Below, piece by piece: positions 16,106 through 16,546 of a stretch of 64,000 bases of DNA. Below the pieces are notes generated by a model, which saw only the letters and a list, made by a program, of their open reading frames with translations, was not told the origin of the DNA and did not search any database. The translations under genes and the position numbers were made by a program. Location: the NCBI RefSeq assembly GCF_003334335.1, contig NZ_QOWQ01000007.1; one strand, given 5' to 3'. Every line of letters begins with the position of its first letter. Position 1 is the stretch's first letter. The stretch is from Escherichia coli. GTDB lineage: Bacteria > Pseudomonadota > Gammaproteobacteria > Enterobacterales > Enterobacteriaceae.

Positions 16106-16546
16106 AGTAAGTACAAAACCTATTCGTTGTATGACAAATGTCACAATTCGATCATGGATAAATCGGGGCAAAAATGCAATGTTGCAGCACTATTTATCTC
16201 ATATTATTTGAGGGTAATAACCTCACATTATCCCTGAATTAAAAGTGGTAATAATAAAACATTATTTAAGAAATATCGCATGTGGAGGCGCAATATTAAA
16301 TATTGTCAACCTAAAGAAACTCCTAAAAACCATATTGAATGACACTTAATATAATTCTTAAAAATAGCCAATTGCCGAATTGTTACCTTGCCTGCTATTC
16401 CGTTAGCTGTAACACTTCCTCCTGCATTATTGGAGAGCCAATATTCAATTACCATAATGTCACCTTATATTCGGAAGTTAATTTCCGCAATAACCCTTTC
16501 TCATCAACGATTGTATGCAGAGAGGGTTTGAAAAATTAAGCTAAAT

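What the first reader, a model, noticed from the sequence alone, without database searches (positions are those of the whole stretch)
16267..16280. Candidate RcsAB box far upstream of wza
'TAAGAAATATCGCA' matches the RcsAB-box consensus TaAGaatatTCctA at about 9-10 of 14 positions and lies about 485 bp upstream of the wza ATG. That location is compatible with a promoter upstream of the JUMPstart-containing leader, and colanic acid is a known Rcs target.
Basis: partly seen in the sequence, partly recalled or inferred. Interest (0 to 1): 0.25.

Follow-up and report, generated by a model that had tools for sequence, protein, structure and literature searches.

The report
Known RcsAB operator upstream of wza
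The flagged 14-base sequence is a real, evolutionarily conserved regulator-binding site in front of the E. coli colanic-acid capsule genes. It is almost certainly the RcsA/RcsB operator already described for this promoter, so it is genuine but ordinary.

Summary
TAAGAAATATCGCA is at window 16267-16280, as stated. It matches the RcsAB consensus at 9/14 positions, including all six capitalised ones, and lies 497-484 bp upstream of the wza ATG.

The match alone is not beyond chance. A random 658-bp region of the same composition holds such a site with P≈0.12.

Conservation is what makes it real. In 58 of 74 orthologous wza upstream regions from many Enterobacteriaceae genera, a T-N-R-G-A-N4-T-C-N-N-A site lies 44-46 bp upstream of a second conserved box. 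In 9 more it lies 55-56 bp upstream, one helical turn further. Information content is 1.61 bits per position inside the box and 0.41 in its flanks. E. coli SNPs stop at its edges.

Downstream of it lie:
- two even better conserved Rcs-like boxes (16304-16329 and 16345-16365);
- a conserved sigma-70-like promoter (16388-16416);
- the JUMPstart/ops element (16547-16585).

The wza RcsAB box is already in the literature (Wehland & Bernhard 2000). I could not read that paper to confirm that its coordinates are these. Protein binding was not tested. Novelty: already known. Interest: low.

The parts
16267..16280 (+). Box A, the flagged 14-mer TAAGAAATATCGCA: a distal RcsAB-type operator. The conserved footprint runs from about 16264 to 16281.
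   Evidence: Sequence read. It scores 9/14 with 6/6 core positions and is the only such site in the intergenic region. Orthologues (commonest form TAGGAAATATCGCA) lie 44-46 bp upstream of box B in 58 of 74 loci and 55-56 bp upstream in 9 of 74. Information content is 1.61 bits per position in the box and 0.41 in the flanks. MG1655, strain 1450 and strain UID2309 have no SNPs inside it, but SNPs at 16260/61/63 and 16282-16293. The same sequence is in MG1655 at 2137727-2137740 on the complement strand.
16304..16329 (+). Island B, TTGTCAACCTAAAGAAACTCCTAAAA. Its 14-mer at 16312-16325, TAAAGAAACTCCTA, scores 10/14 but lacks G4. It has a perfect RcsB-type right half (TCCTA) followed by an A-tract.
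   Evidence: Column conservation is >=0.9 across genera. In Atlantibacter, Siccibacter and Kosakonia cowanii it is a full-core box (TGAGGCTAATCCTA, TCAGGTTAATCCTA, TAAGTTAATTCCTA). It resembles the site upstream of E. coli rcsA, TAAGGATTATCCGAAAAA.
16345..16365 (+). Island C, CTTAATATAATTCTTAAAAAT. Its 14-mer at 16347-16360, TAATATAATTCTTA, scores 10/14 on both strands. It is either a third Rcs-type site centred near -71 of the predicted promoter, or an alternative -10 element (TAATAT/TATAAT).
   Evidence: Conservation is >=0.9, and the B-to-C start distance is 34-35 bp in 72 of 74 loci and 32 bp in the other two. It shares AATC(C/T)TAAAA with island B. It shares TTAATATAATTC with the rcsA 'box1' region, but that similarity is not significant (24 of 300 shuffles reach it).
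16388..16416 (+). Predicted sigma-70 promoter of the wza operon: -35 TTGCCT (16388-16393), a 17-bp spacer, extended -10 TG (16408-16409), and -10 AACACT (16411-16416). The predicted transcription start is about 16423-16425.
   Evidence: It is the best and only consistently high-scoring promoter in a position-weight-matrix scan of 74 orthologous regions (mean 8.0 bits, against 5.0 for the island-C alternative). TTGCCT is present in 58 of 74 loci and TGnAACAAT in 60 of 74. The start site is not mapped experimentally here.
16547..16585 (+). JUMPstart element in the untranslated leader, containing ops (GGCGGTAG, 16574-16581), which recruits RfaH.
   Evidence: Rfam RF01707, 57.3 bits, E=2e-12. ops lies about 190 bp upstream of the ATG in nearly all 80 loci. 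The ops/RfaH role is as stated in PMC3438125.
16764..17903 (+). wza, the first gene of the colanic-acid operon and the regulated target.
   Evidence: ORF list. RefSeq annotation of matching genomes. Homologues at 85-99% identity, named polysaccharide export protein Wza.
14522..16105 (-). yegH, the divergent neighbour, with its ATG at 16105. It is not part of the system and bounds the 658-bp intergenic region.
   Evidence: The distance from box A to the yegH start varies from 53 to 314 bp among loci while the A-B distance stays at 45 bp.

Best explanation
Box A (16267-16280) is the distal RcsAB operator of the colanic-acid (wza/cps) promoter.

Inferred mechanism, from established knowledge of the Rcs system:
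1. Phosphorylated RcsB pairs with the unstable co-activator RcsA. The heterodimer binds this pseudo-palindromic 14-mer, whose half-sites are TAAGA and, on the other strand, TGCGA.
2. Probably together with further RcsB-type sites at islands B and C, on the same face of the helix, it activates a weak sigma-70 promoter about 110-150 bp downstream.
3. The resulting transcript has a leader of about 340-400 nt that contains JUMPstart/ops. RfaH loads there, so transcription runs through the roughly 20-kb operon.

Shown here: the sequence, its consensus match, its discrete conservation, its fixed or helically phased spacing to the promoter-proximal elements, the conserved promoter-like element, and JUMPstart.

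Inferred, not shown: which proteins bind, the transcription start, and cooperation between the boxes.
For: - Exact sequence and position.
- It is the only site in the 658-bp intergenic region that keeps all six conserved consensus positions. PMC4325325 states that the capitals in the consensus mark conserved nucleotides.
- It matches 7 of the 8 specified positions of the structure-derived RcsB box TN(G/A)GAN4TC(T/C)NA (PMC7913699).
- Phylogenetic footprint: 36 non-redundant sequences give 1.61 bits per position in the box and 0.41 in the flanks.
- Orthologues lie 44-46 bp (58 loci) or 55-56 bp (9 loci) from box B. No credible site lies at an intermediate distance, which points to a helical-phase constraint.
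- Where the box has diverged, it is closer to the consensus: Atlantibacter has TGAGGATATTCCTA, 12/14.
- Its spacing follows the wza promoter elements, not yegH.
- SNPs within E. coli flank it but spare it.
- A promoter-like element and JUMPstart lie downstream.
- The literature says the wza promoter has an RcsAB box (PMC2478693; PMC11014345).
- RcsA/RcsB boxes can act from far upstream: those of rcsA lie about 170 bp from its start site (PMC11879457).
Against: - The match in the single sequence is within chance (P=0.12 for the intergenic region; 3 sites observed against 7.5 expected in the window).
- Position 12 is G in nearly all orthologues, where both the RcsAB consensus (c) and the RcsB structural box (T/C) expect a pyrimidine.
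- Islands B and C are more strongly conserved and also resemble Rcs boxes, and B resembles the rcsA site. The published wza box could therefore be B or C rather than A.
- I could not read Wehland & Bernhard 2000, Stout 1996 or Ebel & Trempy 1999. No open-access paper prints any of these 14-mers.
- No binding or expression data were available.
- The transcription start is predicted only, so the box is centred at about -150 (conserved promoter) or about -88 (alternative -10 in island C).
Confidence: 0.72

Rival explanations
1. Box A is a genuine conserved operator but not the published RcsAB box. In this reading the experimentally defined box is island B (TAAAGAAACTCCTA) or island C. Box A is then an auxiliary upstream site, bound by an RcsB homodimer, a second RcsAB dimer or another RcsB partner, that assists a phased multi-site activation complex.
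For: Islands B and C are more conserved than A. B closely resembles the rcsA site TAAGGATTATCCGAAAAA. rcsA is reported to have two RcsA/RcsB boxes (PMC11879457). If the conserved promoter at 16388-16416 is the real one, B is centred near -105 and C near -71, a typical class I activator position. The exact published coordinates could not be checked.
Against: In E. coli, B has A at position 4 and C has T at position 4 (or A at position 11 on the other strand). Both violate nucleotides that the consensus marks as conserved, and only A satisfies all of them. A is also the only one of the three with two RcsB-type half-sites in most genera.
Confidence: 0.2
2. Chance consensus match in AT-rich intergenic DNA, with no function.
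For: 330 sites in the window score >=9/14. Full-core sites number 3 against 7.5 expected. P=0.12 for at least one such site in a random region of this size and composition. Another full-core 10/14 hit, at 39996, lies inside the galF coding sequence.
Against: There is a discrete 16-bp footprint across genera whose flanks are randomised. Its spacing to the promoter elements is fixed or phased. SNPs within E. coli spare it.
Confidence: 0.03
3. The conserved element serves something other than Rcs. Candidates are an H-NS nucleation site (the reverse strand, GCGATATTTC, resembles the AT-rich H-NS high-affinity motif, recalled from memory) or a regulator of the divergent yegH gene.
For: The region is 35% GC. 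The rcsA upstream region is reported to be H-NS-bound (PMC11879457). In most loci box A lies 169-182 bp from the yegH start.
Against: The conserved positions are exactly those of the RcsB palindrome (T1, R3, G4, A5, T10, C11, A14), while the central AT positions vary (A/T). In loci where the distance to yegH changes (53, 54, 200, 298, 314 bp), the distance to box B stays at 45 bp.
Confidence: 0.05

Closest known systems
RcsAB box of enterobacterial exopolysaccharide promoters (Wehland & Bernhard 2000, J Biol Chem 275:7013; consensus TaAGaatatTCctA)
   Same: It is 14 bp long and keeps all six conserved consensus positions. It lies upstream of the first gene of an Rcs-regulated exopolysaccharide operon, several hundred bp from the start codon and ahead of a JUMPstart leader. 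It is conserved across enterobacteria. Other sites of this kind are K. pneumoniae galF TAAGATTATTCTCA (PMC3438125) and the site upstream of rcsA, TAAGGATTATCCGA, which is present in MG1655 and listed for Salmonella as TAAGGTTTATCCGA (PMC7913699).
   Different: Only 9/14 to the consensus. The right half is TCGCA rather than TCcTA, and that G12/C13 is itself conserved across genera. I could not confirm that the published wza box is this exact 14-mer.
RcsB homodimer box TN(G/A)GAN4TC(T/C)NA (Salmonella and E. coli RcsB-DNA structures; PMC7913699, PMC5829831)
   Same: Pseudo-palindrome with G4/A5 and T10/C11. It matches 7 of the 8 specified positions in E. coli and in most orthologues.
   Different: Position 12 is G, not a pyrimidine. 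RcsB-alone sites usually abut the -35 element (PMC5651002), whereas box A lies about 50-110 bp upstream of any candidate -35.
The two RcsA/RcsB boxes upstream of E. coli rcsA (PMC11879457)
   Same: Several Rcs-type boxes lie far upstream of the start site (about 170 bp), 33-45 bp apart, in AT-rich DNA. The rcsA TAAGGATTATCCGA (my assignment as 'box 2') resembles wza island B, and the rcsA 'box 1' region shares TTAATATAATTC with wza island C.
   Different: The order of the box types differs. The sequence similarity between the two regions is not statistically significant (24 of 300 shuffles).

Membership tests
RcsAB box (RcsA/RcsB heterodimer operator) | 14-bp match to TaAGaatatTCctA that keeps the conserved (capitalised) nucleotides T1, A3, G4, T10, C11, A14 | tested here: met
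   9/14 overall and 6/6 capitalised positions. It is the only such site in the 658-bp intergenic region. The meaning of the capitals is from PMC4325325.
RcsAB box (RcsA/RcsB heterodimer operator) | Two RcsB/LuxR-type half-sites as a pseudo-palindrome, TN(G/A)GA-N4-TC(T/C)NA | tested here: inconclusive
   7 of the 8 specified positions match. Position 12 is G instead of T/C, in E. coli and in most orthologues.
RcsAB box (RcsA/RcsB heterodimer operator) | Located upstream of the promoter of an Rcs-regulated gene (an exopolysaccharide operon or rcsA) | tested here: met
   It lies 108 bp upstream of the -35 of the conserved predicted promoter, 267 bp upstream of JUMPstart and 484-497 bp upstream of the wza ATG. 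The start site is predicted, not measured.
RcsAB box (RcsA/RcsB heterodimer operator) | Conserved at the orthologous position in other enterobacteria | tested here: met
   67 of 74 loci carry a site with the pattern 44-46 or 55-56 bp from box B. Information content is 1.61 bits per position in the box and 0.41 in the flanks.
RcsAB box (RcsA/RcsB heterodimer operator) | Specific binding of RcsA plus RcsB (gel shift or footprint) | not testable with these tools
   No binding data are accessible. The primary paper is not held.
RcsAB box (RcsA/RcsB heterodimer operator) | Mutation of conserved box nucleotides abolishes RcsA/RcsB-dependent induction or mucoidy | not testable with these tools
   I recall this being reported for the wza box in Wehland & Bernhard 2000, but I could not verify it or map it to these coordinates.
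RcsB-alone box (class II-like, abutting the -35 element) | Site immediately upstream of, or overlapping, the -35 hexamer | tested here: not met
   Box A ends 108 bp upstream of the -35 of the conserved promoter, and 44-47 bp upstream of the -35 position implied by the alternative island-C -10 element. Island B, not box A, would fit this geometry in the alternative model.
JUMPstart/ops antitermination element | Match to Rfam RF01707 containing GGCGGTAG | tested here: not met
   JUMPstart is a separate element at 16547-16585. Box A lies outside it and, on the predicted start sites, upstream of the transcript.

The most novel reading that the evidence does not exclude
The wza control region is not a single RcsAB box plus a promoter. 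It is a phased array of three or four RcsB-type sites in direct orientation: a weak one at 16192-16202, box A at 16267-16280, island B at 16312-16325 and island C at 16347-16360. Their spacings are held at 45 (or 55) and 34-35 bp across Enterobacteriaceae. In this reading the flagged box A is a previously unmapped distal member that nucleates or stabilises a higher-order RcsA/RcsB assembly, and the published box is B or C.
Probability: 0.2. Interest if true: 0.35.

Novelty: already known. Interest (0 to 1): 0.12.

Why it matters
This box is the switch through which the Rcs envelope-stress phosphorelay turns on colanic-acid capsule synthesis, the textbook Rcs output. Confirming it adds nothing conceptually new.

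The comparative analysis does give a clean map of the control region: a distal box, two nearly invariant proximal boxes, a conserved promoter-like element and JUMPstart. It also shows that the spacing between the boxes is held to whole helical turns across genera. That map could guide promoter engineering for colanic-acid or fucosylated-sugar production, and it makes cooperative multi-site activation by RcsAB directly testable.

Tried and rejected
- **Primary papers.** I tried to read Wehland & Bernhard 2000, Ebel & Trempy 1999 and Stout 1996 to get the published box and start site. None is held.
- **Sequence strings in papers.** I searched full texts for the exact 14-mers and sub-strings of boxes A, B and C and of the rcsA box. 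No relevant paper prints them.
- **Reviews and Rcs papers.** Those I read give the consensus, the Klebsiella galF box, the RcsB structural box and the two-box arrangement at rcsA. None gives the wza coordinates. The cap on papers was reached, and the supplements I tried are not held.
- **MG1655 RefSeq record.** It carries no binding-site or promoter features here.
- **Simple promoter scan.** It found only a non-conserved TGGAGA/CATAAT pair at 16431-16458, which I rejected in favour of the conserved element found by the matrix scan.
- **Short BLAST queries for within-species conservation**. End-trimming of the local alignments made the counts uninterpretable. I replaced this with a direct comparison of three divergent E. 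coli haplotypes.
- **Erwinia amsG/amsH locus** (the founding RcsAB box). A Wza protein search listed only relatives at >=85% identity.
- **Similarity of wza island C to rcsA box 1.** Suggestive (18/22) but not significant.
- **Full-core hit at 39996.** Rejected because it lies inside the galF coding sequence.

Full report
**Observation.** The window is E. coli chromosome. The 16100-16800 stretch is present at >=95% identity in about 4,800 of 5,426 complete genomes and is annotated there as lying between yegH and wza. The 14-mer TAAGAAATATCGCA is at 16267-16280 on the + strand. The wza ATG is at 16764, so the box spans -497 to -484. The yegH ATG is at 16105 on the minus strand, which leaves a 658-bp, 35%-GC intergenic region. 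The box matches TaAGaatatTCctA at 9 of 14 positions, including all six capitalised ones. PMC4325325 states that the capitals mark conserved nucleotides.

**Is the match more than chance?** Not from this sequence alone.
- The window has 330 sites with >=9/14.
- Three sites also keep the full core, against 7.5 expected from Markov simulations.
- A random 658-bp region of the same composition holds at least one such site with P=0.12.
- One of the other full-core hits, at 39996, lies inside the galF coding sequence.

**Comparative evidence.** I fetched 80 wza loci from one-genome-per-species contigs. They cover Escherichia, Citrobacter, Salmonella, Enterobacter, Lelliottia, Kosakonia, Phytobacter, Atlantibacter, Silvania, Cedecea, Buttiauxella, Trabulsiella and other genera. 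An alignment of the 700 bp upstream of wza shows a largely randomised intergenic region with discrete conserved islands:
- box A, about 16264-16281;
- island B, 16304-16329;
- island C, 16345-16365;
- island D, 16381-16420;
- JUMPstart, plus the region just upstream of wza.

I then anchored on island B, without using an alignment, and searched upstream for box A orthologues.
- In 58 of 74 loci a site fulfilling T-N-R-G-A-N4-T-C-N-N-A lies 44-46 bp upstream of the box B start. The commonest form is TAGGAAATATCGCA.
- In 9 of 74 loci the site lies 55-56 bp upstream. These include Atlantibacter TGAGGATATTCCTA, which is 12/14 to the consensus.
- No credible site lies at an intermediate distance. 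The step of 10-11 bp suggests a constraint to stay on the same face of the helix.

Other conservation measures agree.
- In 36 sequences that are <80% identical over the surrounding 84 nt, information content is 1.61 bits per position in the box and 0.41 in the flanks.
- The distance from box A to the yegH start ranges from 53 to 314 bp while the A-B distance stays at 45 bp. The box therefore belongs to the wza control region.
- Within E. coli, I compared MG1655 and two divergent strains with the window. They differ at 16260, 16261 and 16263 and at 16282-16293, but nowhere in 16264-16281, nor in the 14-mers of B and C.
- MG1655 carries the identical box at 2137727-2137740 on the complement strand.

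**Surroundings.**
- Rfam finds JUMPstart at 16547-16585 (57.3 bits, E=2e-12), with ops GGCGGTAG at 16574-16581.
- A simple position-weight-matrix scan of the 74 orthologous regions finds one consistently strong sigma-70-like promoter: TTGCCT (16388-16393), a 17-bp spacer, and TG-n-AACACT (16408-16416; AACAAT in most genera). Its mean score is 8.0 bits. TTGCCT is present in 58 of 74 loci and TGnAACAAT in 60 of 74.
- That promoter predicts a start near 16423-16425 and a leader of about 340 nt. Box A would then be centred near -150, B near -105 and C near -71.
- An alternative uses TAATAT/TATAAT inside island C as the -10 element (mean 5.0 bits). It would start near 16361, with box A near -88 and box B abutting the -35. 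That is the geometry reported for RcsB-alone promoters (PMC5651002).
- I cannot decide between the two models without the mapped start site of Stout 1996.

**Islands B and C.** Both are more conserved than A and share AATC(C/T)TAAAA, which is an RcsB-type right half-site plus an A-tract. In some genera B is a full-core box.

The E. coli rcsA upstream region contains TAAGGATTATCCGAAAAA. The matching Salmonella site, TAAGGTTTATCCGA at -264, is listed as an RcsB box in PMC7913699. rcsA is reported to have two RcsA/RcsB boxes about 170 bp upstream of its start (PMC11879457). Multi-box, far-upstream Rcs control regions therefore have a precedent.

The 12-mer that wza island C shares with the rcsA 'box 1' region is suggestive but not significant: 24 of 300 shuffles reach the same alignment score.

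**What box A is.** The best-supported reading is that it is the RcsAB operator of the colanic-acid promoter. The reasons are:
- It is the only site in the region with all conserved consensus nucleotides.
- It matches 7 of the 8 specified positions of the structure-derived RcsB box TN(G/A)GAN4TC(T/C)NA (PMC7913699).
- The positions conserved across genera are exactly those of that palindrome, while the central A/T positions vary.
- Where the site has diverged, it has moved towards the consensus.

The literature states that the wza promoter has an RcsAB box and that RcsAB activates wza (PMC2478693; PMC11014345).

From memory, and not verified here, Wehland & Bernhard 2000 defined the consensus from sites that included E. 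coli wza. They also showed that mutating conserved nucleotides in the wza box gives an exopolysaccharide-negative phenotype. If the capitals really are invariant in their set, only box A qualifies. In E. coli, B has A at position 4. C has T at position 4, or A at position 11 on the other strand.

I put 0.72 on 'box A is the RcsAB operator'. About 0.2 goes to the variant in which the published box is B or C and A is an auxiliary distal site. Chance (0.03) and non-Rcs functions such as H-NS nucleation or yegH control (0.05) are poorly supported.

**Mechanism (inferred from the established Rcs pathway).** Envelope stress leads to RcsB phosphorylation. RcsB~P pairs with RcsA, which is kept scarce by Lon, and binds the box. 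The right half is thought to be the RcsB half-site and faces the promoter (PMC4325325, PMC3950696). Together with RcsB-type sites at B and C, held in helical register, it activates a promoter with a weak -10 in E. coli. The long leader carries ops/JUMPstart, so RfaH loads and transcription continues through the operon (PMC3438125 for the ops/RfaH role).

**Novelty and score.** This is an already known element of a textbook regulon, so interest is low. The residual novelty lies in the conserved multi-box, phase-locked architecture, which I could not find described in the accessible literature.

Noticed in passing
window 16304-16329 and 16345-16365: Two islands downstream of the flagged box are more strongly conserved than it (>=0.9 column identity across genera). 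They share AATC(C/T)TAAAA, an RcsB-type right half-site plus an A-tract, and lie 34-35 bp apart in 72 of 74 loci (32 bp in the other two). They look like further Rcs-type sites. Island C could instead be a -10 element.
   Followed up: partly
window 16388-16416: A conserved sigma-70-like promoter, TTGCCT / 17-bp spacer / TG-n-AACACT (AACAAT in most genera), is the best-scoring promoter in 74 orthologous regions. It predicts a wza start near 16423-16425 and a leader of about 340 nt.
   Followed up: partly
window 16189-16202; L043 and related Enterobacter/Lelliottia loci about 95 bp upstream of their box A: Enterobacter and Lelliottia carry an additional full RcsAB-like box, TGAGATTTCTCTTA, between yegH and box A. 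E. coli keeps only a degenerate remnant (ACTATTTATCTCAT) with a conserved ATCTCA half.
   Followed up: no
window 16128-16180: A strongly conserved block lies next to the yegH start. It includes a perfect palindrome, TGACAAATGTCA (16132-16143), and AAAATGCAATG (16170-16180). It is presumably the yegH promoter, leader or an operator. Its function is unknown.
   Followed up: no
window 16339-16539: A 66-codon ORF here is annotated 'hypothetical protein' in many RefSeq E. coli genomes. It spans the predicted promoter and the least conserved part of the leader (16424-16545, which has a 12-nt indel in other genera), so it is probably a spurious gene call.
   Followed up: partly
hit H1, NZ_CP024134.1 1875751-1877228 (E. 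coli 14EC017): This genome matches the intergenic region at 100% identity but in two pieces, with an IS1A transposase annotated between them. That is an IS1 insertion inside the yegH-wza control region and could alter capsule regulation.
   Followed up: no
window 39795-39808 and 39996-40009: TAAGGCGATTCCCA (10/14, full core) lies inside the galF coding sequence and is a chance hit. TAGGAACAATGCTA lies in the wcaM-galF spacer, about 130 bp upstream of galF, the position where Klebsiella has its galF RcsAB box. It lacks C11.
   Followed up: partly
L082 858-918 (MG1655 rcsA upstream) versus window 16333-16357: The rcsA 'box 1' region (TGAATTGCCATTAATATAATTC) and wza island C (TGAATGACACTTAATATAATTC) share 18 of 22 bases, including a 12-mer. 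The similarity is not significant by shuffling (24 of 300).
   Followed up: yes
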